Positions 27,107 through 41,829 of a DNA stretch of 64,000 nucleotides are shown here, in pieces. Within the stretch, counting starts at the first letter, position 1, and every line of letters starts with the position of its first letter. The notes below the pieces were generated by a model. That model ran no database searches. It had not been told where the DNA came from and saw nothing but the letters and a program-made list of their open reading frames with translations. Origin of the DNA: an uncultured Thermoactinomycetaceae bacterium (lineage in GTDB: Bacteria; Bacillota; Bacilli; Thermoactinomycetales; CALJVA01); NCBI GenBank assembly GCA_937975135.1, contig CALJVA010000067.1, forward strand, positions 17,792 to 81,791. The letters run 5' to 3'. The translations under genes and the position numbers were made by a program.

Positions 27107-27757
27107 ATGTATCCAGTTGAGATTTTTGTAGTTCATTATCCAGACAGCCTATTATCAGGATTGCAGCTCGTGTTGGAACGCGATATTGAAATTGTAAAAA
27201 GAGGAATCCTCGCAAACCTGTCTACTGAGAAAGATACCTTTCTGTCTAAAGTATCTTGGAAATGTTTTGGAAAAGACATAAAAGAAGTTCAGCAGGCGAT
27301 TACTGAAAAGAAAAGCTCAACAAAGGTGATTTTGTACGCCGATTGTTTGCCAGATTACTGGTTTAGTTATCTCTTAAAAGGTGTCAATGCTGTGGTAGCT
27401 ATCAAAGATCATCAGGAGTTACCAATCGCCATACACCTTGTCTCTCTAGGTGGAATTTATCTCAGCAAGGAATATAAAAATTGTTTTCGTAAAGGGCTAT
27501 ACTTCGAAACTGGTTTTGAATTAGCTAAAAATTGTATAGGATTAACTGAAATGGAGATAAAAGTGATTCGGGAAATTGCACAGGACCGTTCAAATAAGGA
27601 AATTGCTGAAGTGCTCTATATTAGTGAGCGGACTGTAGAATATCATATTTCCTCTGCAATGCGGAAAATGGGAGTAAAGTCAAGGGTTGGATTAGTTGTT
27701 AATATACTAAAAATGAATTTGATAGATTTGAAGGAAATACAAAAATTAAACAGTTGA
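27107..27757 (+). CDS. Orphan LuxR/GerE-family regulator with degenerate receiver-like N-terminus
   Basis: C-terminal HTH LTEMEIKVIREIAQDRSNKEIAEVLYISERTVEYHISSAMRKMGVKSR. The N-terminus EIFVVHYPD lacks the acidic DD pocket of NarL-type receivers. No cognate kinase lies nearby. Confidence 0.8.
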   Translation: MYPVEIFVVHYPDSLLSGLQLVLERDIEIVKRGILANLSTEKDTFLSKVSWKCFGKDIKEVQQAITEKKSSTKVILYADCLPDYWFSYLLKGVNAVVAIKDHQELPIAIHLVSLGGIYLSKEYKNCFRKGLYFETGFELAKNCIGLTEMEIKVIREIAQDRSNKEIAEVLYISERTVEYHISSAMRKMGVKSRVGLVVNILKMNLIDLKEIQKLNS

Positions 27758-27958: not shown

Positions 27959-28033
27959 GCAAGAAATGAAATTTGAATCACCCCCGTCGATGATTTCAAA
28001 AAATGCATGTTTTACAGAAAGGGGGTGAAAAGA

Positions 28034-28186
28034 ATGGAACTGAAGGATCTGGAAATCACTGGGTTAGAAGTGATGGAGTTGAATGATGCGACAGCATTGC
28101 CAGAAACCGGAGCATCTTCTGGTTCAACTTCCTGCTCTGCTACCTCCACATGCGGTTCCTCCTCCTGCTGTGGATCTTGCTGGTAA
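28034..28186 (+). CDS. Thiopeptide/lactazole-type RiPP precursor peptide A1 (50 aa)
   Basis: Hand translation: MELKDLEITGLEVMELNDATALPETGA-SSGSTSCSATSTCGSSSCCGSCW*. RBS GGGGGTG 6 nt upstream. Absent from the ORF track because it is shorter than 60 aa. Confidence 0.85.
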   Translation: MELKDLEITGLEVMELNDATALPETGASSGSTSCSATSTCGSSSCCGSCW

Positions 28187-28288
28187 TGGGTGAGGGAATC
28201 TTTGTAATCATCAGTTTAGATTGGTGATTCCAGTAATAAAAGGATAACTTTATACTTCCCTCAATGCCTTTATGAAAGAGGGGATAGT

Positions 28289-28441
28289 ATGGAACTGAAA
28301 GATCTAGAAATCTCAGGTATCGAGATAATGGATCTAAAAGATGCTACAGCATTGCCAGAGACAGGTGCTTCTGCGGGATCGTCTGGCTGCTCTGCTTGCT
28401 CTACCTGTGGTTCTTGTTCTTGCTGTAGCTCTTGTTTCTAA
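28289..28441 (+). CDS. Thiopeptide/lactazole-type RiPP precursor peptide A2 (50 aa)
   Basis: MELKDLEISGIEIMDLKDATALPETGA-SAGSSGCSACSTCGSCSCCSSCF*. RBS GAGGGGA upstream. Confidence 0.85.
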   Translation: MELKDLEISGIEIMDLKDATALPETGASAGSSGCSACSTCGSCSCCSSCF

Positions 28442-28468: not shown

Positions 28469-28618
28469 ATGGAATTGAAAGAGTTGGAAATCACAGGTTT
28501 GGAAGTAATGGACTTGAATGATGCCACTGCATTGCCAGAAACCGGAGCATCTTCAGGCTCCTCTTCTTGCTCCGCTACATCTACTTGTGGTTCTTCTTCC
28601 TGCTGCGGCTCTTGCTAA
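28469..28618 (+). CDS. Thiopeptide/lactazole-type RiPP precursor peptide A3 (49 aa)
   Basis: MELKELEITGLEVMDLNDATALPETGA-SSGSSSCSATSTCGSSSCCGSC*. RBS AGGAGGTG 5 nt upstream. Confidence 0.85.
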   Translation: MELKELEITGLEVMDLNDATALPETGASSGSSSCSATSTCGSSSCCGSC

Positions 28619-28675: not shown

Positions 28676-28715
28676 AATGATGTAATCGATGTGTTTTCAC
28701 ATCGGTTACATCATT
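28676..28715 (+). promoter_or_regulatory. 18-bp stem-loop between the precursor genes and the enzyme genes (attenuator or mRNA-stabilising hairpin)
   Basis: aatgatgtaatcgatgtg-tttt-cacatcggttacatcatt: 17 Watson-Crick pairs plus one G-U. Followed by tatgtattt, a weak U-tract. Confidence 0.5.
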
Positions 28716-28776: not shown

Positions 28777-31509
28777 GTGGCGCAGGCAGGAGTTGCCCTT
28801 TCAACACCCTCAAGGAAACAAGTCATTGATTTGCCTCTATTTATGCTCCGTGTGGCGGGAATGCCTATTCATGAGCTTCTGCGAATGCGGATTCCGCTGA
28901 CGATGAAGTGTCTTAAAGAAATGACCGAAAATCAAAGGTGGATTGAGGCCAACACCCAATGGATTATAGAAAAAATTGAGCAGGAAGTTCCTAAACAGAA
29001 GGATGATAAAATACGTAATCAGCTAATTCAATATAAAAGGGATATTTTTAACAATCGCTTTCCTAAAAAACGCTCCGATCACTTTCACTCTGTTTTACCT
29101 TCTTCCCTACTTGAGCAGATGAAACAATGGGAAGAAGTTTGGCTTACCATTAAAAAATTGAAAGAGGAAGCAAGTCAACATTTTCCCCAAGAGCTTACTA
29201 AGAATCGGGAAGTACTACAGGAAATTATTCAGGATCCGAACTTATTGAGAGGCGTTGTTTTAACAAGCCGCGATTTGTACTACAAGGTGAAAAAATATAT
29301 TGAAACACCGATTCCCAAGCAAAAAGCGAGATTACGAAAAGTAGAGTATTCCCTGAGCAAGTATATTTCTCGTGTAGCAGCTAAAACCAGCCCTTTTAGC
29401 ACATTCACATCTGTAGGGATTGGAGAATGGAGCTCAGAGCATAAGGATGGAAAGCTTCATATTGCCTCTCTTCAGCATAAGAGCCATGTTCAGCTGAATT
29501 ATGCAAACCTTTTGCGGGTAGTGGATGGACTGGTTAAGCAACCGGCGGTAAGAAAACATCTGTCTTACAAAGTAAACCCAACACTGATTGTCGATGAGGG
29601 CAAAGTGAAGTATATTCGACGGTTGGATGATTCTCAAAGAAGAGCCCGCGTTTTCAAGACATTGGAAACACCTGTTTCTTTGAATTTAAATCCAGCGATT
29701 CAAGCAGTGTTTTCTATTCTTCAATCGGAAGATCAGGGTAAAATCGGTTTTATTGAGTTAGCAAAAAGGCTAACTGAACAATTGTCTACTGCCCCAGAAA
29801 ATGTAGAAAAGTTTCTACATCAATTGATTGACTTAGCGATCCTTGTTCCTGATCTTCATTTATATGAACAGACAAATGAGATTATTCCATCCATATTAGA
29901 ATTAATTAAGGAATGGCCGGAAGAAATTGCACAGCGAACTGGAAGTCGATTACAAGACATGGAAGACATTCTGGCCCAATATGGCTCAGCTTCAGTTGAG
30001 GAGCGTGCCGCTTATTTGCAGCGCGTTAAAGAAATTTATCGAGATATATGCACAGACCTTCAGATTGAAATTTCGGAGACCTCTCTGGGACTCTTAGTCT
30101 ATGAAGACGCAATTTTGCAGGAAAAATCATCCTTTTCACTAGATAATTGGAAAGAGTATCTTAATGATCTAGTGGCCTACCAGTCAATTGCCCCTATTTT
30201 TGATGTTAAATTCCGCATTCAATCTGCAATTGCCCAGAAGTTTATCGAAATGTATGGGGAGGATGGAGTGTGTGATAAACCAGGGCAGTTTCTAAGTACT
30301 GTCGTTCCAACATTAACAGAGTTTTATTCTGCCTTTTTACCTACTGCCTTGCCAAAGGATTTGGAGCTTAAGAATGAGTTGAAGCCAATTCGGATATTAA
30401 ACGAGTTACAAAGAGAAATGGGCGAGTTATTATTAGAACGATTTAAGAATGAACAGGAAGAAGTCCACCTTACTCATGAAGAATTGACTTCCTTTGCAGA
30501 GCGGATTCCAAAGGAGATTGCGAGACGGCCTCTGTCCCATGACTGCTTTGTGCAACTGGTTTCCCGTAGTGATGGTGAGGATCTACTCGTACTTAACCAG
30601 ATGTATTTGGGGAATACCACCTTTTTTACACGATTTCTTTCTTATTTTCCAGAGGAAGAGATCACCCAACTACTTCGAAATTATCTATCTACTCTCTATG
30701 AAAAAGAAGGGGTACTGGCAGAAATTTCGGGCGTATATGGTTTTAATGCCAACCTTCATCCTCCTTTGACGCCGTATGAGCTGTCACTTCCCATGTTATC
30801 ACCTACAAGAGATAAAGGAGAAAAAATTAATTGGGAAGACTTGGTGATGGTATACAACAAAGAAAAAGATCGTGTGATTCTTCGTCATCCTGAACTGGGT
30901 GAAGTGACAACACTATTTTTAGGTACCCTGATTCCCATGTTGATTCCCTTTGTGGTTAATTTTATGGCAACCAATTTTAGTAATGGACATTTTTCTAATT
31001 GGTTTCATTTGTTTGCAGAACAAAAATTAACAGAGGAAGAGAAGCAGCAAGTGCGAGTCTATCCTCGTATTTCTGTCGGACGGGTAGTTGTTGCACGTAA
31101 AAAGTGGATTTTTCCCCGCTCCCAACTGGTATATCGTGAAGCGAGGGATGATGAATTTTCCTACTTTACACGAGTGCATGAGTGGAGAAAGAAGTGGGAC
31201 TTACCAGATCGTCTCTTTTTCCGTTTGGCGGCTGAGCGTCAATCAGAGGAATCAACGTTCTCTTTGGATCCCCAAGCAACAGCCAATACAGAGGAGATCG
31301 ATTTTACGGACTTTAAACCCCAATACCTTGACTTCGAAAATCCTTTATTAGTACGTATGTTTGGAAAAATGATCGCAGACAATTCTTACTATGTCATTAT
31401 GGAAGAAATGTTGCCTGATATTGATAATCTGGCTTTATCGAGTGATGGTAGTTCTTATGTTTCAGAACTTTTAGTAGAACTTAGTCGACCAGGATTGAGG
31501 GAGGAATAG
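28777..31509 (+). CDS. LanB-type dehydratase, N-terminal glutamylation domain protein (Lant_dehydr_N)
   Basis: 910 aa. N-terminal FMLRVAGMPIHEL motif and size are typical of split class I lanthipeptide/thiopeptide dehydratases (TclK/LazB-like). GTG start after AAGGAGGA. Confidence 0.8.
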   Translation: MAQAGVALSTPSRKQVIDLPLFMLRVAGMPIHELLRMRIPLTMKCLKEMTENQRWIEANTQWIIEKIEQEVPKQKDDKIRNQLIQYKRDIFNNRFPKKRSDHFHSVLPSSLLEQMKQWEEVWLTIKKLKEEASQHFPQELTKNREVLQEIIQDPNLLRGVVLTSRDLYYKVKKYIETPIPKQKARLRKVEYSLSKYISRVAAKTSPFSTFTSVGIGEWSSEHKDGKLHIASLQHKSHVQLNYANLLRVVDGLVKQPAVRKHLSYKVNPTLIVDEGKVKYIRRLDDSQRRARVFKTLETPVSLNLNPAIQAVFSILQSEDQGKIGFIELAKRLTEQLSTAPENVEKFLHQLIDLAILVPDLHLYEQTNEIIPSILELIKEWPEEIAQRTGSRLQDMEDILAQYGSASVEERAAYLQRVKEIYRDICTDLQIEISETSLGLLVYEDAILQEKSSFSLDNWKEYLNDLVAYQSIAPIFDVKFRIQSAIAQKFIEMYGEDGVCDKPGQFLSTVVPTLTEFYSAFLPTALPKDLELKNELKPIRILNELQREMGELLLERFKNEQEEVHLTHEELTSFAERIPKEIARRPLSHDCFVQLVSRSDGEDLLVLNQMYLGNTTFFTRFLSYFPEEEITQLLRNYLSTLYEKEGVLAEISGVYGFNANLHPPLTPYELSLPMLSPTRDKGEKINWEDLVMVYNKEKDRVILRHPELGEVTTLFLGTLIPMLIPFVVNFMATNFSNGHFSNWFHLFAEQKLTEEEKQQVRVYPRISVGRVVVARKKWIFPRSQLVYREARDDEFSYFTRVHEWRKKWDLPDRLFFRLAAERQSEESTFSLDPQATANTEEIDFTDFKPQYLDFENPLLVRMFGKMIADNSYYVIMEEMLPDIDNLALSSDGSSYVSELLVELSRPGLREE

Positions 31510-31512
31510 TTT

Positions 31513-32652
31513 TTGTGGAAAGCGATTCATATTTATTATTACCAAGATGATAAAGAAGGTTTGTTACTGGATGGCATTCGTCCTGTAGTCAAAAGTTTGC
31601 GCGATACATACCAGGTTGAACGTATTTATCTAAAGAGACATTGGAAATTGGGTCCTCACATTATTTTATATGTCGATGCTTTGGAAGAAAGATTTGAAAA
31701 AGTACTTTATCCCTTTATTGAACAAGAAATTTACAAGTATCTTAAGGAACACCCATCGACACAGGTGATCGATCCCGTTGCTTATGTAAAGCAATCAGAA
31801 ACATTGGGTGCGTGGGAGCTGGAACCAGGCCCTTATGAACCGCTTGAACCAGACAATTCCATCAGTGTTAAGCCTGTTCGATCTCGAGCTGAATTGGTCA
31901 ATGGGGAAGAAGTAGCTCATCTCATTGAGAACTTTATGGTAGACAGTGTTGATCTTGTGTTTGACTGTTTGGATTCTACTCGAGGTCAAATTAATCAGCG
32001 GTATGGAAAACTGATTCAGATGATGGCTGTAATTGGCCAAATGTATCCCGTTGATGGGATTATCCGTGGTCATCTTTCTTATCGATCCCATGTTGAAGGG
32101 TATTTGCATTCTTTTGATAAAGAGGGAAAGATTCGACAAGTTTTTTTAGAAAATGAACGTGGAATGATGAAGACCGTCGATCATCTTGTACGGGATATTA
32201 TGGACCATACAAATGAGGATGGTACTTACGGAGGGGACGACCCCTTTTTACAGTCCTGGTCAGAAGTTCTTTCTAAATTGTATCAAGAAGCATTCCCTCT
32301 GGCTCAAGCAGGAAAAATTAACGCTGACACATCCCACTATAGAGAGATTGCCGCTAGAATAGGGGAACAAGCAAAAAAGCGTTGGGATCTAACACAGGAT
32401 CAAAGCGATTTTCACCGGCATCTTCAATCGGAAGAAGAAGGTTTGCGTGTTTTAAACAGTCCTGAATTTGCAACCTATCGTATCTTGGTAAATAATTTTT
32501 ATTCCTTGTTGCCTCTTTTGGGAATTAATCCAAATGTAAAGCACTTACTCTGTTTTCTGGTTGCCAATTCTGTAGAGAGAATTGCACAAGTAACATGGCA
32601 GGAACTTATGGGATATCAAAAGGGTGAGAATACTTATGAAACCAAAACTTAA
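31513..32652 (+). CDS. Thiopeptide-type bacteriocin biosynthesis domain protein (SpaB_C / Lant_dehydr_C): glutamate-elimination partner or pyridine synthase
   Basis: 379 aa. Family hallmark W..IHIYYY....LLLDGIRPVV...YLKRHWKLGPHIILYV. Confidence 0.75.
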   Translation: MWKAIHIYYYQDDKEGLLLDGIRPVVKSLRDTYQVERIYLKRHWKLGPHIILYVDALEERFEKVLYPFIEQEIYKYLKEHPSTQVIDPVAYVKQSETLGAWELEPGPYEPLEPDNSISVKPVRSRAELVNGEEVAHLIENFMVDSVDLVFDCLDSTRGQINQRYGKLIQMMAVIGQMYPVDGIIRGHLSYRSHVEGYLHSFDKEGKIRQVFLENERGMMKTVDHLVRDIMDHTNEDGTYGGDDPFLQSWSEVLSKLYQEAFPLAQAGKINADTSHYREIAARIGEQAKKRWDLTQDQSDFHRHLQSEEEGLRVLNSPEFATYRILVNNFYSLLPLLGINPNVKHLLCFLVANSVERIAQVTWQELMGYQKGENTYETKT

Positions 32653-34498
32653 ACAGACTGTTCACTTCGCACCAACAGAAGACGGGGTATATTTTAAGAC
32701 ATGGACCGGTGAATTTGCGATCAAAGGCAAAGGGTTGTATCAATGGATTGAACAGATGGTACCTTATTTAGATGGAAATAGAACCATTGAAGAGCTGGTG
32801 GAACCTTTATCTCCCGAACAAGAACAGTTTGTGAGGCATCTCATTAATCAGCTGGTACAGCGTGGTGTAATTAAAGATGCGACTGAGGAATCCCATGTAG
32901 TCTTATCGGAGCGGGAAAAAGAGCTTTATCAACAGACTATCCTGTACTTAGAAGAGTATGCTTCTGATGGACGAAAACAATTTCAACGGTTTCGGCACAG
33001 TCAATGGATGGTTTTTGGTTCTGGATTAAGTTACCGTTCCTGTGTTCGTTCAGTAATTTCCCTTGGAGTAAAAACACTTTACTTAGAAAAGACAGAAGAT
33101 ATCACCTTGATTCGTTGGATCGAAAAGTGGCAAAAGAAAGATCCTGAATTTAAAGTGACATGGATCTCCAGTGAGAAAGAAGAGGAAATTCTAGATACAG
33201 TTGTCGATAAGCAACTTGATCTAGCAATCTATGTGAGTGATCAGTATGATTCCGAGCGGATTTCTTCTTTGATCCAGTTCCTTGGAAAACATGAGATAGA
33301 TCTTCTGATCACCAGCAATATCGAAAACCGAGGGATTGTAGGTCCTATCATTACTAAAGAAGAACCAACAAGTTGGTACAGTCTACAGGATCGTCTGCAT
33401 CCAAAGAAGGAGGTTGCTGCTTCTCCTCCTCCTACTTTTTATCTCATGCTTGGCAATCTTGCTGCTTTGGAGGCATTTAAGTTTGTCAATGGATTGCCAG
33501 ATCAAGGGGTAGTGGATGGAGTTGTTATTTTGACGCCGGAGCAACTGGAGACGAAGCGTCATCCTGTTTTGTCATCTCCCTTCTTTAACAAGAAGGAGAG
33601 TGTGGATGAAGAAGAATGGCTACATCGTTTTCAGAAGAAATCAGAGGAAGAGGATCAAGAGGTATTCCTAGAACAAATTGCAGAGATCAGTGATCCACAG
33701 CTTGGAATCCTTCATCCAGTTCATCCTGGGGATCTCTGGCAGATTCCACTTCTTTTTATGGGAGCAACGCTTCATTTTCCTCGTTCTATGAATCGTGAAA
33801 TCAAGCAATTTGTAGCAGGGAAAGAAAATGTATCAGATGCAACGGAGCAAGTGATCCGAGATGCACTCACTTATTATGCTCAAACGATTCACGAATACGA
33901 AGGAGATGAAGAGCTTGCTGCTACGTCATATGTTTGGGAAAACGGACGAACTTTTGCTGAATGGTTGGGCAGAGGCGCCTTGAAGGCTTGGGCTCAGATG
34001 GTGAAACAGTCAGCACCAGCCAAGGAGCTGCCTTTGGAGATTCCCTCCTTAAAAATTGGTACCTATGTAAAAATGTTATCCCTTCGTTATGGGTGTAACA
34101 TCCGCTTAATTGAAGTGGATCTAGGTTTACCTTCTTCCCATTATGTACAAGTATTGGACAATGGAAACATATTGGCAGAAAGTGTGGGTCGTACTCAGGA
34201 TGAAGCGGTTGAACTCGCCTTGGTACAGGGAATCAGCCAAATGCAGTTGAAAAATCATCATCCGGAACTTTGTGATCCTTTGGAACCCTCTTGGTTTGCT
34301 AGATCACTTGAAGTAGGTGAGTGGGAAAATAAGCAACCCATACCTTCCTGGCAGGAATGGAAAAGGAATGCAGAAGAGTATTGGAAAGAAAAGGGATGGG
34401 AGCTGATTGTAAAACCCTGGTATCGTGACCCAGCTTGCTATGAAGCAGGTTTGTTGATTGGGCGGATCGGATTTAAAGAAGGGAGAGGGGTTGAATGA
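32636..34498 (+). CDS. TOMM/thiopeptide leader-peptide-binding (RRE / E1-like) cyclodehydratase partner protein
   Basis: The N-terminus KLKQTVHFAPTEDGVYFKTWTGEFAIKGKGLYQWIEQMVPYLDGNRTIEELV is typical of PqqD-like RRE N-termini of azoline-forming C proteins. The C-terminal GRTQDEAVELALVQGI weakly recalls a YcaO motif. Confidence 0.6.
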   Translation: MKPKLKQTVHFAPTEDGVYFKTWTGEFAIKGKGLYQWIEQMVPYLDGNRTIEELVEPLSPEQEQFVRHLINQLVQRGVIKDATEESHVVLSEREKELYQQTILYLEEYASDGRKQFQRFRHSQWMVFGSGLSYRSCVRSVISLGVKTLYLEKTEDITLIRWIEKWQKKDPEFKVTWISSEKEEEILDTVVDKQLDLAIYVSDQYDSERISSLIQFLGKHEIDLLITSNIENRGIVGPIITKEEPTSWYSLQDRLHPKKEVAASPPPTFYLMLGNLAALEAFKFVNGLPDQGVVDGVVILTPEQLETKRHPVLSSPFFNKKESVDEEEWLHRFQKKSEEEDQEVFLEQIAEISDPQLGILHPVHPGDLWQIPLLFMGATLHFPRSMNREIKQFVAGKENVSDATEQVIRDALTYYAQTIHEYEGDEELAATSYVWENGRTFAEWLGRGALKAWAQMVKQSAPAKELPLEIPSLKIGTYVKMLSLRYGCNIRLIEVDLGLPSSHYVQVLDNGNILAESVGRTQDEAVELALVQGISQMQLKNHHPELCDPLEPSWFARSLEVGEWENKQPIPSWQEWKRNAEEYWKEKGWELIVKPWYRDPACYEAGLLIGRIGFKEGRGVE

Positions 34499-36462
34499 AG
34501 CGGCAGATTTGGGTAGTTGGAGAGGGAACCTTTGCTGACCAGGTATTGAAGCAAATCGAAGTAAATGCTTCACTAATCCAAAAATGTATCGCCGATTTAC
34601 ATGAAGCAAATGATCAACATCAACCAGATGTAATTCTAAGTTTGCTTGATTACCGTGGAATTGAAGAGGAGTTGGAGATCCAAAGAATTGCAGGTCGCTT
34701 GCAAGTACCCTACTTACGTGCTCACTTATATACGGATCGGGCCTATATTGGGCCTTGGGTAATGCCCGAGAAAGAAGGATGTATTCGCTGTGCAGAGTAT
34801 CGGATGAGGACGGCCCATCCACATCGTGACATGGAAGAGGGAATGGTGAAGGCACAAAAAAGTGTACGTTATCTAGAAGCAAAAAAGTGCTGGAGCGTTC
34901 CCTTTCTTTCCTATTGTAGTGTGTTGATTGAAGGAGAATTGCAACAGTGGATTTCTGGAGGGCCATTGCAATTGATTGAGCAGATGTATGTGGGTTACGA
35001 TCATTTACTCACCGGACAGCTTCATCGGTTTCAGCCGAATCCAGTCTGCCCCGAATGCAGTCCTCTTCCCGATGATACCCCCGAGCTTTGCCAGTTAAAT
35101 CTTGTTCCACGACGCAAACCATCTCCACGAACCTATCGCTTACCCAATCCGAATCTGTCCAGAGAAAATTTGCGTCGTCAATTTTATGACTGGCGGATGG
35201 GAATATTTCGTCATATCTACCGGGATATTTATTCAAGTTTGTTACCGATTTGTGGGTCGGAACTACCTTTGGATGATCGGATGATCGAACGTGGTTTTGG
35301 GCGGACGACAACATTTAATGATTCGGAAAAGACCGCAATGTTGGAAGCTCTAGAAAGGTATGCTGGTATGAAACCGCGGGGCAAACGGACCGTGGTTCGA
35401 GGTTCTTATCGGGAGCTAAAAGATCGGGCGATTCACCCCCCGTCATTGGGCCTTCATGATCCAAAACAAGCGAATGAGCCAGGGTATAATTATCGGCCCT
35501 ACGATGATGATACTCCCTTTAACTGGGTTTGGGCCTATTCCTGGAAAGAAAAAAAGCCCGTTTTGATTCCAGAACAAATGGTTTATTACCGCTCCACAGA
35601 AACGAAGGATCGCTTTGTTTATGAAACCTCTAATGGTTGTGCGATGGGAGGGTCCTTAGAAGAAGCAATCTTCTATGCATTGTTGGAAGTGATTGAGCGG
35701 GATGCTTTCTTGATTGCTTGGTATAATCGCTTGCCTTTGGTTCATTTGGATATTGAAGATGTGAAAGATCCCAATATTTTGTTGGTTAAAGATCGCGTTA
35801 CTGCGATGGGATATCAGCTCCACTTTTTCGATATGACCATGGATAGTAAGGTTCCAAGTATATGGGCTACTTTGATCAATCCCGCTGAAGATGCTGGAGT
35901 GAAAACCTATTCCGCCGCCGGAGCTCACCCTGATCCCGAAAAGGCACTAATGGGGGCAATGGTGGAAGTTGTTACCTCTGTACCAATTTATGAACAAACC
36001 ATGCCACAACAGCGGGATCGTGCAACAGAGATGGTAAAGGATCCAGGAAAAGTTCAATTGATGGAAGATCATGTATTGCTTTATTCCCATCCTGATACGC
36101 TGAGTCGGTTTGATTTTTTGTTTACAGAACAAAGTAAAACAAAAAAAATGCGGGAGGCATATCGGGACTGGTATGAAAAGACACCCCCAGAAGATTTGAC
36201 AGAAGAACTTACGGCTTTAGTTGAGCGAATCCTCCAGAATAACCATGATCTTCTAATTGTTGATGAAACCACTCCCGAACTACGAAAAGTAGGAATTTAT
36301 GCGGTAAAGGTTTTTGTTCAAGGAATGCTTACGATGTCCTTCGGTCATCAGTATCGCAGGATTATTCTTGACCGTGTACAACAAGCCCCCATTTTGGCTG
36401 GCTATCGTACACATCCGATCAAGGAAGAAGAGATCAATCTTCATCCTCACCCCTTTCCGTGA
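34495..36462 (+). CDS. YcaO-family cyclodehydratase (azoline synthase) with N-terminal E1-like/zinc-ribbon region
   Basis: 655 aa. YcaO motifs GFGRTTTFNDSEKTAMLEALERYAG and ETSNGCAMGGSLEEAIFYALLEVIERDAF. N-terminal CIRC...CPEC cysteine pairs. ATGA overlap with the upstream gene. Confidence 0.85.
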   Translation: MKRQIWVVGEGTFADQVLKQIEVNASLIQKCIADLHEANDQHQPDVILSLLDYRGIEEELEIQRIAGRLQVPYLRAHLYTDRAYIGPWVMPEKEGCIRCAEYRMRTAHPHRDMEEGMVKAQKSVRYLEAKKCWSVPFLSYCSVLIEGELQQWISGGPLQLIEQMYVGYDHLLTGQLHRFQPNPVCPECSPLPDDTPELCQLNLVPRRKPSPRTYRLPNPNLSRENLRRQFYDWRMGIFRHIYRDIYSSLLPICGSELPLDDRMIERGFGRTTTFNDSEKTAMLEALERYAGMKPRGKRTVVRGSYRELKDRAIHPPSLGLHDPKQANEPGYNYRPYDDDTPFNWVWAYSWKEKKPVLIPEQMVYYRSTETKDRFVYETSNGCAMGGSLEEAIFYALLEVIERDAFLIAWYNRLPLVHLDIEDVKDPNILLVKDRVTAMGYQLHFFDMTMDSKVPSIWATLINPAEDAGVKTYSAAGAHPDPEKALMGAMVEVVTSVPIYEQTMPQQRDRATEMVKDPGKVQLMEDHVLLYSHPDTLSRFDFLFTEQSKTKKMREAYRDWYEKTPPEDLTEELTALVERILQNNHDLLIVDETTPELRKVGIYAVKVFVQGMLTMSFGHQYRRIILDRVQQAPILAGYRTHPIKEEEINLHPHPFP

Positions 36463-36472: not shown

Positions 36473-38020
36473 ATGAATCGAGATCTTACCATCGGTCGCA
36501 CTTTTATTCACAATAAAACCTATTACCGTTTTCGGACGGCTCAAGATTTAAAATTGCGATCAGTTCCGGAAAGGTTTGTAACTGAGAAACCCGCAAAAAA
36601 AATGATTCCTTTAACGTGGGATGTATATCCTGATTTGGGGGAGATGGAGAGCTTTGGTCCGTTAAAAGTCCCATCTTTTGAGAGGAGAATAGCAACGCTT
36701 CTTTACTATACAATGGGACTTCTCCGTTATGAGGTGAATAGTCCACGGGCGTTTCATCGCCCTTTTCCTTCTCCTCGTGGTCTCTACGCATCGGAGATTT
36801 ACCTCTCTCTTCCTCAAGAAATAATCGGGGAAGCTGGTATCTATCGCTACAATCCGCTTTACCACGCTGTGGAAAAAAGGCGTTCGTTTACAGGATGGCA
36901 ACAGATTGAAGCAGCAATTGGTATCTCGCTTACAGATGCACAAGGTGTACTCGTGTTAGGTATTGACTTTTGGCGCATCGCCCATGTCTACGATGATTTT
37001 GCGCTAAATTTGGCCACGATAGAGGCAGGGCATGCTTTGGGACAGATCCTCCTTACGGCCCAACGTTTATCATGGGATGTTTCTGTTCATTACACCTTCA
37101 TAGATCAAGAGATTTTATCCTTATTTGGGTTGAACGAAGCGGAAGAAGCTCCGTTGGCCGTAATTGTTTTATGGCCTGCAGGGAAGAAAAAAATTGAGCC
37201 GGCCACCAAATTCTTTGCTCCATCGTTACCGCCCTTCACCGTCCATTCCCGCTATAGCCGGGAAATGGCACAGTGCAAGGAGATGCTGGAAATGGTACGA
37301 GCCTCTCGATTGCGTCGAGGGGATCCCTTTCCCTTAATAGAGATAGAGAAGGGTATATTCGAAGGAGATAAAAAAAGAATGGATTGGGTGCCGTTTCAAG
37401 TAGTAGGAGCAGAGTGGCATGATCCCAGTTGGCTAGAAGCGGTGAAAAGGCGAAGTTCGGGAAATGATCTGGGGGGGATGATGGCAGCCAGTACGTCCCT
37501 TAGCTTTACCCAGTTATCGAAGATGTTGCTCTTATTATTAGGGGAAAAACAATGGGAATGGCAAGTGGCATTAAAACATGTGAAAATTTTTGTGGTGGCT
37601 AATCGGGTGAATAATCTTAGGTCAGGTATTTATCGGGTAGTAAGAGAGCCGGATGGATTGATCCCTTACCGACAAGGATCTATGGGGGAATTACTGCAGA
37701 AATTGAGTATTTATTCTCCACAAAGTTGGAATGCCCATTCTTTTCCCGTCTCTATTTTTCTGGCGGTCGACTATCAAAGTGTACTGGAACGGTATGGAAA
37801 TCGCGGTTTTCAGATGGTTCAGCTGTGGATGGGTCAGATTAGCCAACATCTATCCTTATCAGCTGCTGCGATGGACTTTTTCTTACGTCCCCTTAAAAGC
37901 TTCTACGAAGAAGAAGTTGAACATGCTTTTGGTTTGTTATCAACGAAGGATACAATTGCTTATCAACTTATTTTGGGAAAAAATAAAACACCTTATTTAT
38001 CTTTCGATCTTGGATTTTAA
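36473..38020 (+). CDS. SagB-type (nitroreductase-fold, FMN) azoline dehydrogenase, two-lobed 515-aa form
   Basis: ATG 36473 follows GAGGTGG. PSPRGLYASEIYL and RRSSGNDL motifs are typical of SagB/McbC-type dehydrogenases. The track start at 36314 would overlap the YcaO gene by about 150 nt. Confidence 0.75.
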   Translation: MNRDLTIGRTFIHNKTYYRFRTAQDLKLRSVPERFVTEKPAKKMIPLTWDVYPDLGEMESFGPLKVPSFERRIATLLYYTMGLLRYEVNSPRAFHRPFPSPRGLYASEIYLSLPQEIIGEAGIYRYNPLYHAVEKRRSFTGWQQIEAAIGISLTDAQGVLVLGIDFWRIAHVYDDFALNLATIEAGHALGQILLTAQRLSWDVSVHYTFIDQEILSLFGLNEAEEAPLAVIVLWPAGKKKIEPATKFFAPSLPPFTVHSRYSREMAQCKEMLEMVRASRLRRGDPFPLIEIEKGIFEGDKKRMDWVPFQVVGAEWHDPSWLEAVKRRSSGNDLGGMMAASTSLSFTQLSKMLLLLLGEKQWEWQVALKHVKIFVVANRVNNLRSGIYRVVREPDGLIPYRQGSMGELLQKLSIYSPQSWNAHSFPVSIFLAVDYQSVLERYGNRGFQMVQLWMGQISQHLSLSAAAMDFFLRPLKSFYEEEVEHAFGLLSTKDTIAYQLILGKNKTPYLSFDLGF

Positions 38021-38047: not shown

Positions 38048-39019
38048 ATGAAACGGGATTGGCATGCTTATCACATTTTTTATCATCGGTTTGATAAACA
38101 AGACTCACTATTGCTAGACTGTATTGCTCCACTAGTAGCTGAGGTTCAGGAAAAAAACTTATGCAAGGATTGGTTTTTTATCCGCTATTGGGAAGGTGGA
38201 CCTCATATCCGTCTTCGTTTTTTGGATCCGGATCCTTTGGTTGAAACGATGATCCATGAGAGAATCACTGATTTTATTACAGCTTATCCACCTAAAGAAG
38301 AGATCACTCGGGATCAGTATTATCGAAATCATAAGTTTGATGGAGAACCCGTTGATCCAGACACCTTGCCATGGTATCCCAATGGAAGTATTGTGAAACT
38401 TCCTTATGAGCCGGAATATCAGCGCTATGGTGGAAAAGATGCGATGGCAATCAGTGAGAAAATCTTTACCTATTCTAGTGAAATGGCTTTGAAGGTGATG
38501 GGAGAGTCCGCTGGAGATTTGGCCAAACGATTAAATTTGGCCATGGATTTGATGATTTTAACCGCTAGGTGTTTAGATGTAAGGTTCGAAGAGCTTGCCG
38601 GTTATTTTAAGCGCTATGCAGATTATTGGGGTGGGTTTTTGGATCAACCCAAAGAAGCAGTACAAAAAATTGAATTTACATTTTCTAAGCAGGCTGAGCG
38701 ACTTGTAAAACGATTAGCCATATTGGAGAAGATCCATGATTCTCAAGAAGAGGTGCCACTTTATCGAATATGGGTGGAGCAATTAAAGTCAGCCCAACAA
38801 AGTTACCATCAGTTGGCAAGCGAAGGAAAGTTGATATCCCCTATTTCGATTCCTAATAAGAAAGGGGATCAAACGCGATTTGCCGTTTCAGCGATTGCTT
38901 TTTCTCAGATCCATATGACCAATAATCGTCTTGGACTTGCGCCTCCCTTTGAACATTATCTAGGTTATATGATTTATTTAATTGCGCAACATCGCCAATC
39001 TTCAATAAATGCTTCCTGA
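38048..39019 (+). CDS. Second thiopeptide-type bacteriocin biosynthesis domain protein (SpaB_C-like): candidate [4+2] pyridine synthase (TclM/LazC-like) or elimination domain
   Basis: 323 aa. Hallmark WHAYHIFYH...SLLLDCIAPLV...WFFIRYWEGGPHIRLRF. Confidence 0.7.
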   Translation: MKRDWHAYHIFYHRFDKQDSLLLDCIAPLVAEVQEKNLCKDWFFIRYWEGGPHIRLRFLDPDPLVETMIHERITDFITAYPPKEEITRDQYYRNHKFDGEPVDPDTLPWYPNGSIVKLPYEPEYQRYGGKDAMAISEKIFTYSSEMALKVMGESAGDLAKRLNLAMDLMILTARCLDVRFEELAGYFKRYADYWGGFLDQPKEAVQKIEFTFSKQAERLVKRLAILEKIHDSQEEVPLYRIWVEQLKSAQQSYHQLASEGKLISPISIPNKKGDQTRFAVSAIAFSQIHMTNNRLGLAPPFEHYLGYMIYLIAQHRQSSINAS

Positions 39020-39064: not shown

Positions 39065-39946
39065 ATGAAAAAATCAACACAGTGGATGTTCGCTTCTTTA
39101 AACAGCCTTACACCAGCAGAGCGGTTAAAACGGAAGGGAAAGGATTTCCCTAATCCTTTTTCACTGGCAGAGTTGTATCACGAAAACAGCAAGTATCATC
39201 CGAACTTGATGTCATACCAGATGCCCCTACATCAGTATGCAACACCCGATTACGCCAAAATGCGAAGGAAAGATTATGTGGACCTTCCTTCATTAAAGGA
39301 GCTGCCATCGTTACCTGTCCCATTAGGAGAAGTATTGAAGCGGAGGCGAAGCGAGTGGGACTTTGCCTTGCCAGTTACCTTTGAGCAACTGGCACAAGTA
39401 CTGCAGCATGCTTGGGGTGTTTCGGCTTACAAGCCTGTGCAAGATCATGACGGCAGCACCTTTGATCTTCGGTTACGAACCTACCCGTCAGGGGGGGCTC
39501 TATATCCCATTCAAATGATTATCTATGCACAACAAGTGGAAGGGCTTCAGTCCGGTTTATATCAATTTTCAGCTTTCGACAATCGGTTATATCGAATTTC
39601 AGGTGAACTGGACCCCGATTCTTTTTCTCGCTTAACCCCCTCCACGGATCCGGACCGCAATCCCATTTATCCTGGAAGTGACTTTCGTAAGGCGGCCTTT
39701 TTTTGCTTTTTATATGCGGACTTTACCAATCAAGCGGATAAGTATGGACTGCGGGCCTATCGTCTCGCACTGTTGGAAGCAGGACATGCAGCACAAAATT
39801 TACTCCTAGTCACTACGGCATTACAGTTGAAGAGTGTTCCTCTGGCGGGTTTTTATGATGATCGAGCCCATCAGCTGTTGCAGCTAAATGGTGTTGATCA
39901 AGCTTTGTTATATATAATTCCTGTGGGCAAATCGAAGGAGACTTAA
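39065..39946 (+). CDS. SagB/ThcOx-family dehydrogenase (293 aa)
   Basis: LYHENSKY, RRRSEWDF, TYPSGGALYP and AGHAAQNLLL motifs of the SagB-type dehydrogenase domain. Confidence 0.8.
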   Translation: MKKSTQWMFASLNSLTPAERLKRKGKDFPNPFSLAELYHENSKYHPNLMSYQMPLHQYATPDYAKMRRKDYVDLPSLKELPSLPVPLGEVLKRRRSEWDFALPVTFEQLAQVLQHAWGVSAYKPVQDHDGSTFDLRLRTYPSGGALYPIQMIIYAQQVEGLQSGLYQFSAFDNRLYRISGELDPDSFSRLTPSTDPDRNPIYPGSDFRKAAFFCFLYADFTNQADKYGLRAYRLALLEAGHAAQNLLLVTTALQLKSVPLAGFYDDRAHQLLQLNGVDQALLYIIPVGKSKET

Positions 39947-39948: not shown

Positions 39949-41070
39949 ATGATAAACAAAGAAACGCATGAGGAATGGTTGGATAAGGTATATCAATTGC
40001 GTCCTGGATATTTCTTTTCCTTTCCGAAGCCCCATGAGATGCAGATTCGCTTGAAAAGCTGGGGAGAGAGTCTGATTTGGCTGCGCGGTCGTGAAGGAGA
40101 GGACTGGGTATCTCACTTTTTCAGTGGGCTTGATGGCTTTCATCGGTTGAGGGAGCTTATTCAAAGAGTACCCAGAGAATATCATGAAAATGTATTTAAG
40201 ATACTCGCTGCTCTAAGACCTCGCTTTCTTATAGAATCAACCCTTAGCACTACAACTCGAATAGAAAAACGTTGGCAACAGATACTGGGAGTGAGAGCAA
40301 CAGCGATGGAGGAATATCAAAAAGCTTTAGCAGAAGCTCGCGTCTTAATCTTTGGAGCAGGTAAGTTAGGAAGTCGCTTTGCAACGAGCTTGGCCCAATG
40401 GAATCCACAGCAGCTTATGATTGTGGATGATGAAAAGATTACTCGAAATGATATTGAAGAAAGCCCTGCTTATGCTTTTTTTGAGGTAGGGGAGAACCGG
40501 GGAGAAGCTTTGGCCAAAACGATTAATCGGATGGCTGGGCGCACCTTAGCCGAAGGTGTGAACCTATCTTACGAAGACTTACAAGGTTTACGGGAGAGAA
40601 TCGAAAATTCAACACATGTTTTTGTGGCTATTGATCGCTATTCACCTGCTTTATATGATAAGGTTAATCATATCGCACTGGAGAAAAAAGTGCGTTGGTC
40701 TTTTCTGTTGGTAGATGGATGGGACTTATATGTTGGGCCTACTTTTTTTCCTGAACAATCGGGATGCTATCATTGTTTGGAACTGACCAAAAAGAGTGAT
40801 ATGCAAAAACCTGCTTCTTATGAAGCTTTCCGTGAAAGTTTGATCAGAGGAGAAAAAGCGCCTGATTTATGTAGTCCGATCGCTGCAGATTTGGCAGCGG
40901 GATTTTTGGCTGCGGATGCCATTCATCTCTTTGGGTTGATGCCCCAACGGATTGAAGCGGAAGCTAGTTTAACAATCGGTAGACAGCTCCATGTAAATTT
41001 ACGTACCTTTGACGCTTATTTTCATCCAATGATTAAGAAGCCTCGGTGTACAGTGTGTGGCACAGTCTAG
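39949..41070 (+). CDS. ThiF/E1-like protein with N-terminal RRE-like region (ocin-ThiF-like)
   Basis: Rossmann RVLIFGAGKLGSRFATSLAQ...MIVDDEKITRNDI, paired cysteines CYHC ... CTVC, and an N-terminal wHTH-like segment. Confidence 0.65.
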   Translation: MINKETHEEWLDKVYQLRPGYFFSFPKPHEMQIRLKSWGESLIWLRGREGEDWVSHFFSGLDGFHRLRELIQRVPREYHENVFKILAALRPRFLIESTLSTTTRIEKRWQQILGVRATAMEEYQKALAEARVLIFGAGKLGSRFATSLAQWNPQQLMIVDDEKITRNDIEESPAYAFFEVGENRGEALAKTINRMAGRTLAEGVNLSYEDLQGLRERIENSTHVFVAIDRYSPALYDKVNHIALEKKVRWSFLLVDGWDLYVGPTFFPEQSGCYHCLELTKKSDMQKPASYEAFRESLIRGEKAPDLCSPIAADLAAGFLAADAIHLFGLMPQRIEAEASLTIGRQLHVNLRTFDAYFHPMIKKPRCTVCGTV

Positions 41071-41087
41071 AAAGGGGAGAAGAGAAC

Positions 41088-41828
41088 ATGGCAAAGAAAA
41101 CTGTCATCGAAGTGGATGCAGTTGAAAAAGCTTACGGAACAACCAAAGCAGTGGATGGGATATCCTTTACAGTATCTCAGCAGGAGATTTTTGGTGTAAT
41201 TGGTGCCAATGGAGCAGGCAAGACAACCACATTGGAAATGATCATGGGCCTTAGGGTTCCAGATAAAGGAAATATCAAGGTGTTGGGGCATGATGTGGTC
41301 AAAAATACAGATCAAATCAAGCAAAAAATTGGTATTCAATTACAGCAAACATCGTTGTATGACCGCATTAAGGTTAAGGAAGCGCTAGAGTTGTTTGCTT
41401 CCTATTATGATAAAACAAGGGACCCACAAGAGATTATTCAGCTTCTGGGGTTAGAGCCCTATTTAAATAAATATGTAAAGAAGTTATCTGGTGGTTGGCA
41501 ACAGAGGACTGCATTGGCCCTTGCTTTAATCAATGATCCTGACATTATATTCCTAGATGAACCAACAACAGGACTCGATCCACAGGCACGGCGGGATTTG
41601 TGGGACGTGATTTTAAAGTTGCGTGATGAGGGGAAAACAATTGTTCTTTCGACACACTATATGGAAGAAGCACAACGCCATTGTGATCGAATCGCGGTAA
41701 TAAAAAAAGGACGGCTCGTCGATTGTGATACACCTGAAGGATTGATTCGCCGTCTACCAGAAGGCAAAGGGACAATGGATGATGTATACCTTCAACTAGC
41801 GGTGGAGCAGAAGGAGGAATCGGCATAA
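41088..41828 (+). CDS. ABC transporter ATP-binding protein
   Basis: Walker A GANGAGKTT, signature LSGGWQQR, Walker B IIFLDEPTTGLD. ATG 41088 follows GGGGAGAAGAG. Confidence 0.9.
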   Translation: MAKKTVIEVDAVEKAYGTTKAVDGISFTVSQQEIFGVIGANGAGKTTTLEMIMGLRVPDKGNIKVLGHDVVKNTDQIKQKIGIQLQQTSLYDRIKVKEALELFASYYDKTRDPQEIIQLLGLEPYLNKYVKKLSGGWQQRTALALALINDPDIIFLDEPTTGLDPQARRDLWDVILKLRDEGKTIVLSTHYMEEAQRHCDRIAVIKKGRLVDCDTPEGLIRRLPEGKGTMDDVYLQLAVEQKEESA

Positions 41829-41829
41829 G

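What the first reader, a model, noticed from the sequence alone, without database searches (positions are those of the whole stretch)
28115..28186. Core register does not fit known thiopeptide macrocycle classes
In characterised thiopeptides the pyridine forms from Ser1 and a second Ser that is followed directly by Cys. Examples are Ser10 in thiocillin (26-membered), Ser11 in GE2270 (29) and the S-S-S-C motif in lactazole (32). Known ring sizes follow 3(n-1)-1. In these three cores the Ser-Cys pairs conserved in all paralogues are S6/G6-C7, S17-C18 and S21-C22. A1 and A3 also carry a lactazole-like S15-S16-S17-C18 motif. If Ser1 and Ser17 are the cycloaddition partners, the ring would have about 47 members, larger than any class I know (26, 29, 32, 35). 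Alternatively the product may be linear. Either outcome would be structurally new.
Basis: inference. Interest (0 to 1): 0.65.

Follow-up and report, generated by a model that had tools for sequence, protein, structure and literature searches.

The report
Thiopeptide precursors with oversized conserved core
Three tandem genes encode precursors of a thiopeptide-type modified peptide whose 22-23-residue core probably closes into a ring much larger than in any characterised thiopeptide, but the core belongs to a widespread, already catalogued and chemically unstudied family.

Summary
Window 28115-28186 is the 23-residue core of the first of three tandem precursor genes. They sit in front of a complete thiopeptide gene set that includes a TbtD-like pyridine synthase.

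Of the four known ring registers (second Ser at position 10, 11, 12 or 13), only position 11 is a Ser in these cores.

In the berninamycin class Ser13 is followed by a dehydroalanine. A standard 29-membered ring from Ser1 and Ser11 was therefore wrongly dismissed.

The block C13-G14-S15-x16-S17-C18-C19 is nearly invariant. It copies the lactazole recognition motif and lies directly before the variable tail. A related Bacillus cereus-group cluster keeps this block although its core has lost the S11-T12-C13 module.

My best reading, at about 0.5, is a pyridine from Ser1 and Ser17 and a ring of about 47 members.

The core is not peculiar to this window. It is a member of NCBIfam NF033400, which also contains LazA, and it occurs almost unchanged across phyla. 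I found no characterised product.

Verdict: a new variant of a known kind, of moderate interest.

The parts
27107..27757 (+). LuxR-family (GerE HTH) regulator directly upstream of the precursor genes
   Evidence: PF00196 GerE, E 4e-18. A LuxR homologue sits at the same place in L003-L005.
28034..28186 (+). Precursor A1. Leader 28034-28114 (MELKDLEITGLEVMELNDATALPETGA). Core 28115-28183 (SSGSTSCSATSTCGSSSCCGSCW).
   Evidence: NF033400 60.9 bits.
28289..28441 (+). Precursor A2. Core 28370-28438 (SAGSSGCSACSTCGSCSCCSSCF).
   Evidence: NF033400 58.0 bits. The identical protein P0024 was seen on 20 public contigs.
28469..28618 (+). Precursor A3. Core 28550-28615 (SSGSSSCSATSTCGSSSCCGSC).
   Evidence: NF033400 58.7 bits.
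28676..28715 (+). 18-bp stem-loop followed by a T-rich tail, between the precursor genes and the enzyme genes. It is probably a leaky terminator that sets the ratio of precursor to enzyme (inference).
28777..31509 (+). Split LanB dehydratase, glutamylation domain (TbtB/LazB-like)
   Evidence: PF04738, E 1e-47. 43-45% identical in L001-L003.
31513..32652 (+). Pyridine synthase ([4+2] enzyme, TbtD/PbtD-like)
   Evidence: NF045556 288.6 bits over the full length, below the cutoff of 325. PDB TbtD 5wa3, E 1e-35. Both Tyr of the segment holding catalytic TbtD Y319 are conserved.
32624..34498 (+). Ocin_ThiF_like protein (partner of the cyclodehydratase, TbtF/TclI-like)
   Evidence: TIGR03693, E 1.5e-31.
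34495..36462 (+). Fused E1-like/YcaO cyclodehydratase
   Evidence: PF02624, E 5e-86. TIGR03604 359 bits. TIGR03882 90 bits.
36473..38020 (+). SagB-type azoline dehydrogenase 1. The ORF is listed from 36314. ATG 36473, preceded by GAGGTGG, is the likely start.
   Evidence: TIGR03605 117 bits. Start examined.
38048..39019 (+). Split LanB dehydratase, glutamate-elimination domain (TbtC/TclL-like). This is not the pyridine synthase.
   Evidence: PF14028 165.6 bits. TIGR03891 106.7 bits, cutoff 48.
39065..39946 (+). Second SagB-type dehydrogenase
   Evidence: TIGR03605 111 bits. Conserved in L001-L003 and L060.
39949..41070 (+). Second ThiF/SagC-like protein with a leader-binding domain
   Evidence: PF00899, E 5e-20. 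TIGR03603 and TIGR03882.
41046..42570 (+). ABC transporter: ATPase 41046-41828 and ABC-2 permease 41830-42570. Export or immunity is inferred.

Best explanation
The finding is the core of one of three tandem precursor peptides (A1-A3) of a thiopeptide gene cluster (27107-42570).

Shown by homology:
- The precursors belong to the same curated precursor family as LazA.
- The cluster encodes a split LanB dehydratase, a YcaO cyclodehydratase with two partner proteins, two azoline dehydrogenases, a TbtD-like pyridine synthase and an ABC exporter.

Inferred pathway:
- Cys residues, and some Ser and Thr residues, are converted to azoles.
- Other Ser and Thr residues are dehydrated.
- The pyridine synthase joins the dehydroalanine from Ser1 to a second dehydroalanine and expels the leader as a carboxamide.

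Most likely second partner: it lies in the nearly invariant block C13-G14-S15-x16-S17-C18-C19, and is most probably Ser17. Dha15 and azole16 would lie before it and thiazole18 after it. This is the same arrangement as Dha10-Oxz11-Ser12-Thz13 of lactazole.

The result would be a ring of about 47 members (44 if Ser2 is the first partner, 41-44 if Ser15 or Ser16 is the second) and a short tail C18-C19-G/S-S-C(-W/F).

Residues 4-10 form the variable part of the ring.
For: 1. A complete thiopeptide enzyme set is present. The pyridine synthase matches over its full length and keeps the Tyr residues of the segment holding catalytic TbtD Y319.
2. In 86 unique cores of the same register, S17 is 86/86, S15 85/86, G14 85/86, position 16 is S/C/T only and position 18 is C/T/S only. 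Positions 4-10 and everything beyond 19 vary.
3. In lactazole Ser10, Ser11 and Ser12 are each essential. Ser12 is the pyridine Ser and the unmodified tail follows Cys13 directly. An S-S-S-C or S-T-S-C motif is present in 66 of 83 lactazole-like precursors. LazA itself scores 67.7 bits on NF033400, the model the window precursors hit.
4. A natural variant in the Bacillus cereus group (P0185, 12 contigs, two tandem copies) has the core SSGSNGTYLCGSSSCCSSCCS. It has lost the S11-T12-C13 module and has no Ser between S4 and S12, yet keeps C-G-S-S-S-C-C. Its cluster L060 has the window's architecture (pyridine synthase 30% identical, E 2e-57; YcaO 48%) and a LEITGL...PETGA leader.
5. The only core that lacks S17 (P0171) is a singleton on an 845-bp contig.
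6. Among 207 unique cores, the last S-[S/T/C]-S-[C/T/S] motif has its third residue at position 17 in 118.
7. LazC forms rings of up to 62 members in vitro, so a ring of this size is enzymatically feasible.
Against: - No product has been observed. Everything about the ring is inference from sequence.
- S11 is also invariant (86/86). It is flanked by azole-capable residues in most members (position 10: C53, T13, S13, Y5, H2; position 12: T58, S21, C7). This matches the GE2270/thiomuracin register (n = 11).
- The window's enzymes are TbtD-like rather than LazC-like.
- An ungapped alignment places LazA S10-S11-S12-C13 on window positions 10-13, not 15-18.
- Some family members carry the exact C-G-S-S-S-C-C heptad at positions 7-13.
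- FIT-Laz efficiency fell as the ring grew.
- Subfamilies that start with T1 (TSGS..., and one TIGS...) still have a pyridine-synthase homologue. The first partner is therefore not securely position 1.
Confidence: 0.5

Rival explanations
1. A standard 29-membered ring. The pyridine forms from Ser1 and Ser11, the GE2270/thiomuracin register. Azole 10 (Thz in A2, methyloxazole in A1 and A3) would sit on the ring side and T12 (methyloxazole or Dhb) plus Thz13 on the tail side. Residues 12-22/23 would form an unusually long, azole-rich tail.
For: - S11 is the only Ser at any of the four known registers and is invariant in 86/86 cores.
- Position 10 is C/T/S in 79/86 cores and position 12 is T/S/C in 86/86.
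- The pyridine synthase is closest to TbtD, whose substrate uses Ser11.
- 'Followed by Cys' is not a general rule.
- Long tails are tolerated by LazC.
Against: - The S11-T12-C13 module is missing from a related window-type system that keeps the pyridine synthase.
- Position 9 (n-2) is Ala in all three window cores and variable across the family, and position 10 is Y or H in 7 unique cores.
- This model leaves the near-invariance of G14-S15-x-S17-C18-C19 unexplained.
- An 11-12-residue tail has no precedent among characterised thiopeptides. The structural peptide is 12-17 residues in total.
Confidence: 0.22
2. A small ring made inside the conserved block. Dha11 would be the first partner and Dha17 the second, giving a 17-membered ring. 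Residues 1-10 would be expelled together with the leader.
For: - S11 and S17 are the only two Ser invariant in all 86 same-register cores, and their spacing never varies.
- G14 is invariant, as a tight ring might require.
- S1 is replaced by Thr in several subfamilies that keep the synthase homologue.
- Rings of 14 members are accessible to LazC.
Against: - The L060 variant has no Ser at or near the S11 position.
- Positions 1-10 are Ser/Cys-rich and begin at the canonical ALPE.GA|S boundary, which is homologous to proven Ser1 of LazA.
- A1-A3 conserve S1.
Confidence: 0.06
3. A linear azole- and dehydroalanine-containing peptide (goadsporin-like). The TbtD-like protein would be inactive or would do something else.
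For: - The score on NF045556 is below the curated cutoff (288.6 against 325).
- The core is longer than any characterised thiopeptide core.
- The published discussion suggests that lactazole-like thiopeptides may have evolved from goadsporin-like peptides.
Against: - The match to TbtD is full-length with conserved Tyr residues.
- The enzyme is conserved at 46-47% identity in the syntenic clusters of three other species (L001-L003) and aligns with 21 relatives, with 19 invariant columns in an 18-sequence alignment.
- S1 and the GA|S boundary are conserved.
Confidence: 0.08
4. More than one product. The two tandem S-x-S-x modules (positions 9-12 and 15-18) would both be used, giving ring-size isomers (29 and 47 members) from the same precursor, or different rings from A1/A3 and A2.
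For: - The core reads as hexad repeats, SSGSSS|CGSCST|CGSSSC|CGSC.
- Pyridine synthases are promiscuous about ring size.
- Three divergent paralogues are kept.
Against: There is no direct evidence. Thiopeptide pathways usually converge on a single ring (abstract).
Confidence: 0.1

Closest known systems
Lactazole A (LazA and the laz cluster of Streptomyces lactacystinaeus; 32-membered ring)
   Same: - Same curated precursor family: LazA scores 67.7 bits and the window peptides 58-61 bits on NF033400.
- Same leader end, ALPE[N/T]GA|S, and the same S-x-G start of the core.
- An S-S-S-C motif with Gly or Ala before it and Cys or Ala after it.
- No tailoring enzymes beyond azole, dehydroalanine and pyridine formation.
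   Different: - Position 12 is Thr, not Ser.
- The S-S-S-C motif sits five residues further along, at 15-18.
- The core has 22-23 residues, all Ser/Thr/Cys/Gly/Ala apart from the terminal Trp or Phe of A1 and A2, instead of 14 plus an unmodified tail.
- The enzymes are split and TbtD-like, with no LazF-type fusion of elimination and dehydrogenase domains.
- There are two dehydrogenases and extra ThiF-like proteins.
Thiomuracin / GE2270 (Tbt and Pbt clusters; 29-membered ring from Ser1 and Ser11)
   Same: - Closest enzyme set: TbtD-like pyridine synthase (PDB 5wa3, E 1e-35), split LanB, Ocin_ThiF_like protein plus fused YcaO, and a SagB dehydrogenase.
- Ser at position 11.
   Different: - Ser11 is followed by Thr, not Cys.
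- Position 2 is Ser or Ala, not Cys.
- The core is 7-8 residues longer.
- The precursors do not reach the GetA-type model NF033399 at E 0.01.
Berninamycin / geninthiocin class (35-membered ring from Ser1 and Ser13)
   Same: A Ser-rich core. It shows that the second Ser need not be followed by Cys.
   Different: Position 13 is Cys here. The window cluster has no P450 and no C-terminal amidation gene.
Goadsporin-type linear azole/dehydroalanine peptides
   Same: A combination of a YcaO cyclodehydratase and a split LanB dehydratase acting on a Ser/Cys-rich core.
   Different: The window cluster has a dedicated TbtD-like pyridine synthase.
Uncharacterised thiazolyl_B precursors of the Bacillus cereus group, Tumebacillus, Staphylospora, Paenibacillus, Proteobacteria, Deinococcus and Actinobacteria
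   Same: - Almost the same core. B. cereus-group SSGTSSCSASSTCGSSSCCGSC matches A3 at 20 of 22 positions.
- Same register in 103 of 105 unique cores.
- Tumebacillus and P. tarimensis clusters are fully syntenic with the window.
   Different: - Leader and enzymes diverge strongly. The pyridine-synthase homologue of the B. cereus L052 cluster is only 22% identical.
- None has a known product in the literature I could search.

Membership tests
Thiopeptide (RiPP class) | Ribosomal precursor with a leader and a Ser/Thr/Cys-rich core | tested here: met
   NF033400 58-61 bits (cutoff 30) and TIGR03892 39-45 bits (cutoff 25) for A1-A3.
Thiopeptide (RiPP class) | YcaO cyclodehydratase and azoline dehydrogenase | tested here: met
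   PF02624, E 5e-86. TIGR03604 359 bits. Two TIGR03605 SagB proteins.
Thiopeptide (RiPP class) | Split LanB-type dehydratase (glutamylation and elimination domains) | tested here: met
   PF04738, E 1e-47 (28777-31509). PF14028 and TIGR03891 (38048-39019).
Thiopeptide (RiPP class) | Dedicated [4+2] pyridine synthase | tested here: inconclusive
   The match to NF045556 is full-length at 288.6 bits, but below the curated cutoff of 325. TbtD in the PDB matches at E 1e-35, and the Tyr residues around catalytic Y319 are conserved. Activity was not tested.
Thiopeptide (RiPP class) | Six-membered nitrogen heterocycle closing a macrocycle in the product | not testable with these tools
   This needs MS and NMR of the product.
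26-membered class (thiocillin, thiostrepton, nosiheptide) | Ser at core position 10 | tested here: not met
   Position 10 is T (A1), C (A2) and T (A3).
29-membered class (GE2270, thiomuracin) | Ser at core position 11 flanked by Cys10 and Cys12 | tested here: inconclusive
   S11 is present in all three cores. The flanks are T10/C10/T10 and T12. They could form azoles but are not the canonical Cys.
32-membered class (lactazole) | Ser at core position 12 within S10-S11-S12-C13 | tested here: not met
   Position 12 is Thr in A1-A3 and Thr in 58 of 86 family cores. The lactazole requirement is documented.
32-membered class (lactazole) | laz-type enzyme architecture (LazF fusion of elimination and dehydrogenase domains; five-gene minimal set) | tested here: not met
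   The elimination domain and the dehydrogenases are separate genes, and there are extra ThiF-like and SagB-like genes. The laz architecture is described.
35-membered class (berninamycin, geninthiocin) | Ser at core position 13 | tested here: not met
   Position 13 is Cys in A1-A3 and in 86 of 86 family cores. Ser1/Ser13 usage is documented.
NCBIfam NF033400 thiazolyl_B precursor family (includes LazA) | Score above the curated cutoff of the model | tested here: met
   A1 60.9, A2 58.0 and A3 58.7 bits against a cutoff of 30. LazA scores 67.7 bits.

The most novel reading that the evidence does not exclude
The window's cluster would make natural thiopeptides whose pyridine closes a ring of about 47 members, or 41-47 depending on the exact Ser pair. 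That is well outside the 26-35 range of all characterised thiopeptides. By extension, so would a cross-phylum family of clusters that includes Bacillus cereus-group strains.

The core scaffold is conserved far more tightly than the enzymes that build it. This points to a conserved, possibly non-antibiotic function.
Probability: 0.5. Interest if true: 0.75.

Novelty: new variant of a known kind. Interest (0 to 1): 0.5.

Why it matters
In the studied classes, ring size decides the target: 26-membered rings bind the ribosome/L11 complex and 29-membered rings bind EF-Tu. A natural ring of 41-47 members would therefore define a new structural class, probably with a new target.

According to the authors of the 2020 FIT-Laz paper, about half of all predicted thiopeptide clusters are lactazole-like, and lactazole is the only characterised member. 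The function of that half is an open question.

This locus, its three divergent paralogues and its natural variants supply a concrete set of substrates and enzymes to answer it. The variants are the B. cereus-group core lacking the S11 module and the cores with +1 and -1 indels.

The near-identity of the core across Bacillota, Actinomycetota, Pseudomonadota and Deinococcota is unusual for an antibiotic, given that the enzymes are only 22-33% identical. It deserves an explanation.

Tried and rejected
Searches that gave little or nothing:
- A scan of metagenome contigs with the precursor profile gave only two weak leader-only matches.
- Full-text searches for core strings (STCGSSSCC and others) found nothing.
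- A search for thiopeptides with 38-47-membered rings found nothing relevant.
- A search for thiopeptides in the genera that carry the family turned up no characterisation of a product, judging from titles and abstracts; the listed papers were not opened.
- Schwalen et al. 2018 and Wang et al. 2010 (cyclothiazomycin) are not held. My statements about cyclothiazomycin rest on my own knowledge.

Organism not identified:
- No rRNA lies in the window.
- I ran no further search on this.
- The gene content (gpr, holA) points to a spore-forming Bacillales chromosome. I identified gpr and holA by Pfam.

Readings considered and rejected:
- Thr12 as the second partner, which would give a methylpyridine in the lactazole register. 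Position 12 is Cys in 7 cores, Ala in P0029 and absent in L060.
- The 323-aa Lant_dehydr_C protein as a second pyridine synthase. It passes TIGR03891 (elimination-type), whereas the 379-aa protein does not.
- P0171, the only core lacking S17, as evidence against S17. It is a singleton on an 845-bp contig.

Not attempted: structure prediction, because a model of the enzyme alone cannot tell which Ser it uses.

Full report
**1. What is there**

Window 28115-28186 is the last 23 codons plus the stop of a 50-aa ORF. The ORF starts at ATG 28034, 7 nt after an AGGGGGTG Shine-Dalgarno sequence.

Two paralogues follow at 28289-28441 and 28469-28618. The three genes form a 153-nt direct repeat with 74-82% nucleotide identity.

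The leaders are MELK[D/E]LEI[T/S]G[L/I]E[V/I]M[E/D]L[N/K]DATALPETGA. The cores are:
- A1: SSGSTSCSATSTCGSSSCCGSCW
- A2: SAGSSGCSACSTCGSCSCCSSCF
- A3: SSGSSSCSATSTCGSSSCCGSC

The peptides are not chance ORFs. Each scores 58-61 bits on NCBIfam NF033400 'thiazolyl_B' (cutoff 30) and passes TIGR03892.

An 18-bp hairpin with a T-rich tail (28676-28715) separates the precursor genes from the enzyme genes.

**2. The gene cluster**

All the cluster genes are on the + strand:

| Coordinates | Product |
|---|---|
| 27107-27757 | LuxR-type regulator |
| 28777-31509 | LanB glutamylation domain |
| 31513-32652 | Pyridine synthase |
| 32624-34498 | Ocin_ThiF_like protein |
| 34495-36462 | Fused E1-like/YcaO cyclodehydratase |
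| about 36473-38020 | SagB dehydrogenase |
| 38048-39019 | LanB elimination domain |
| 39065-39946 | Second SagB-like dehydrogenase |
| 39949-41070 | Second ThiF/SagC-like protein |
| 41046-42570 | ABC-2 exporter (ATPase and permease) |

The 379-aa protein is the pyridine synthase:
- It matches NF045556 (TbtD_PbtD_pyrid) over its full length at 288.6 bits. This is somewhat below the curated cutoff of 325.
- It matches TbtD in the PDB at E 1e-35.
- TbtD Y319 is catalytic (PMC12018205). Both Tyr of the aligned segment are kept in the window enzyme, as Y322 and Y330. Y330 is invariant and Y322 nearly invariant in an alignment of 18 homologues.

The 323-aa protein passes TIGR03891 and is the elimination domain, not a second synthase.

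The cluster lies between holA and a group made of a 2-thiouracil desulfurase, ccdC and a tRNA-synthetase gene preceded by a T-box leader (probably trpS), in a spore-former chromosome. There are no further tailoring genes.

**3. The four known registers**

The facts about lactazole were checked in the literature (PMC7210931):
- Ser1 and Ser12 form the pyridine.
- Residue 11 is an oxazole and residue 10 a dehydroalanine.
- S1A, S10A, S11A and S12A each abolish cyclisation.
- Known natural rings run from 26 to 35 members.

In the window cores, position 10 is T/C/T, position 11 is S/S/S, position 12 is T/T/T and position 13 is C/C/C. Only the 29-membered register (n = 11) is open.

That rule fails for the 35-membered class. 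In geninthiocin and berninamycin Ser1 and Ser13 form the pyridine, and Ser14 becomes a dehydroalanine of the tail (PMC6306032). The 29-membered outcome therefore has to be kept as a rival.

**4. The core belongs to a large conserved family**

A profile of the precursors found 223 homologues, all carrying PF19409. A search of cluster representatives found 139 more distant ones.

The same 22-residue register appears in many lineages:
- The Bacillus cereus group, with SSGTSSCSASSTCGSSSCCGSC in up to six tandem copies.
- Tumebacillus, Staphylospora, Paenibacillus, Halobacillus, Oceanobacillus and Exiguobacterium.
- Streptococcus and Carnobacterium.
- Deinococcus.
- Several Proteobacteria.
- Streptosporangium.

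Conservation in 86 unique cores of the same register:

| Position | Residues (count) |
|---|---|
| 1 | S80, T6 |
| 2 | S84 |
| 3 | G85 |
| 4-10 | variable |
| 11 | S86 |
| 12 | T58, S21, C7 |
| 13 | C86 |
| 14 | G85 |
| 15 | S85 |
| 16 | S73, C9, T4 |
| 17 | S86 |
| 18 | C71, T12, S3 |
| 19 | C69, V12, others |
| 20 onward | variable |

Only two of 105 unique cores have an indel between positions 1 and 13.

LazA scores 67.7 bits on NF033400. At the precursor level the window peptides are therefore lactazole-like.

Peptides of this register appear in the published alignment of 83 lactazole-like precursors (supplementary Fig. S23 of bioRxiv 10.1101/2020.05.12.092031). One example is ...STGSSSSDSSSTCGSSSCSSSV. 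The figure legend says nothing about their ring size.

The enzymes, by contrast, diverge widely:
- Tumebacillus and P. tarimensis clusters are fully syntenic at 37-61% identity.
- The B. cereus L052 cluster has a pyridine-synthase homologue only 22% identical and a YcaO only 33% identical, although its core matches A3 at 20 of 22 positions.

**5. Which Ser is the second partner?**

Both S11 and S17 are invariant, so simple conservation does not decide. Four observations favour the block C13-G14-S15-x16-S17-C18-C19.

- (a) The block reproduces the lactazole site, [A/G]-S-S-S-C. A conserved Ser lies two residues before the partner, an azole-capable residue one before it and an azole-capable residue after it. 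Around S11 the n-2 position is Ala in all three window cores and varies across the family. The n-1 position is Tyr or His in seven cores.
- (b) As in LazA, the variable and often unmodifiable tail starts right after the block. Examples are ...CGSSSCC|ISLE and ...CGSSSC|VALN.
- (c) Among 207 unique cores, the last S-[S/T/C]-S-[C/T/S] motif has its third residue at position 17 in 118.
- (d) A natural variant from the B. cereus group gives the strongest evidence. P0185 occurs on 12 contigs and as two tandem copies in L060. Its core is SSGSNGTYLCGSSSCCSSCCS.
  - The S11-T12-C13 module is gone, and no Ser lies between S4 and S12. C-G-S-S-S-C-C-x-S-C is intact.
  - Its cluster has the window's gene order. 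The leader shares LEITGL...PETGA with the window leaders.
  - The pyridine synthase is 30% identical (E 2e-57; NF045556 191 bits), the YcaO 48% and the second dehydrogenase 43%.

The only core lacking S17 is a singleton on an 845-bp contig.

The L060 variant also argues against a small ring formed between S11 and S17.

**6. Points against the Ser17 model**

- An ungapped alignment puts LazA S10-S11-S12-C13 on window positions 10-13.
- Some family members carry the exact CGSSSCC heptad at positions 7-13.
- The window enzymes are TbtD-like, and TbtD's own substrate uses Ser11.
- LazC made rings of up to 62 members in vitro, but efficiency fell as the ring grew.
- The first partner is also not fully secure. 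Several subfamilies start with T-S-G, and one with T-I-G, yet keep a TbtD-like homologue next to the precursor gene. In those systems Ser2, Ser4 or a dehydrobutyrine must serve.
- In the window, A2 has Ala2, so Ser1 is the natural candidate there.

**7. Verdict**

I put about 0.5 on a second partner in the S15-S17 block, which means a 41-47-membered ring and most likely 47.

A linear product is unlikely.

The locus is a typical member of a catalogued but chemically uncharacterised family, not a one-off. I found no report of a natural thiopeptide with a ring larger than 35 members. The library lacks most subscription journals, so this absence is weak evidence.

I rate the finding a new variant of a known kind, with interest 0.5.

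Noticed in passing
Family-wide: window 28115-28618 compared with L052 10001-11164 and the enzyme genes of L052: The core peptide is far more conserved than the enzymes that modify it. The A3 core and the B. cereus-group core match at 20 of 22 positions. The pyridine-synthase homologues are only 22% identical, the LanB domains 24% and the YcaO proteins 33%. The family spans at least four phyla. This pattern is unusual for an antibiotic and suggests a conserved function of the scaffold.
   Followed up: partly
L057 10001-11534, L058 2675-4066, L059 10001-10350; proteins P0159-P0163, P0166, P0169: Several subfamilies of the precursor start the core with Thr (TSGS...), and one starts with T-I-G-S. 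They still have a full-length TbtD-like homologue next to the precursor gene (48-70 bits on NF045556). All characterised thiopeptides that I know use Ser1, so the first cycloaddition partner in these systems is unexplained.
   Followed up: partly
L004 5504-9094 and L005 9266-12873 (Paenibacillus pinihumi, P. roseus): These loci hold an orphan arrangement: a LuxR regulator, a pyridine-synthase homologue (37% identical to the window's) and the ABC-2 exporter pair. Within the stretch fetched I could find no precursor gene, no LanB and no YcaO. It may be a cluster remnant or an immunity-type module.
   Followed up: partly
L052 10001-11164 (B. cereus-group chromosome): Six tandem precursor genes carry two core variants (SSGTSSC... 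and SSGSSGC...). L051 from another strain has two genes plus a truncated copy. The copy number of the precursor array therefore varies between strains.
   Followed up: no
window 43823-44088 (+): A T-box leader (136 bits) lies upstream of a class I Trp/Tyr-type tRNA-synthetase gene. It overlaps the start of the ORF listed from 44037, so the real start codon is probably further downstream.
   Followed up: no
window 7812-7979 (+): A c-di-AMP riboswitch (ydaO/yuaA type, 97 bits) lies directly upstream of the 591-aa ORF at 7990-9765.
   Followed up: no
window 36314-36472: The ORF listed for the first SagB dehydrogenase begins at a TTG inside the YcaO gene. ATG 36473, preceded by GAGGTGG, is the more likely start. 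That gives 515 aa instead of 568.
   Followed up: yes
L028, L031, L034-L036 (Streptomyces and Kitasatospora); L008, L014, L021 (Actinomycetes): Other uncharacterised thiopeptide-type precursor arrays turned up. One kind has mixed cores, SSGGTMCCSSSSSTCCC and SNWGGWFCCSSSSSATCCC, within one locus. Another kind has cores ending in runs of five or six Cys (for example SCSVCSCCVVCCCCCCS).
   Followed up: no
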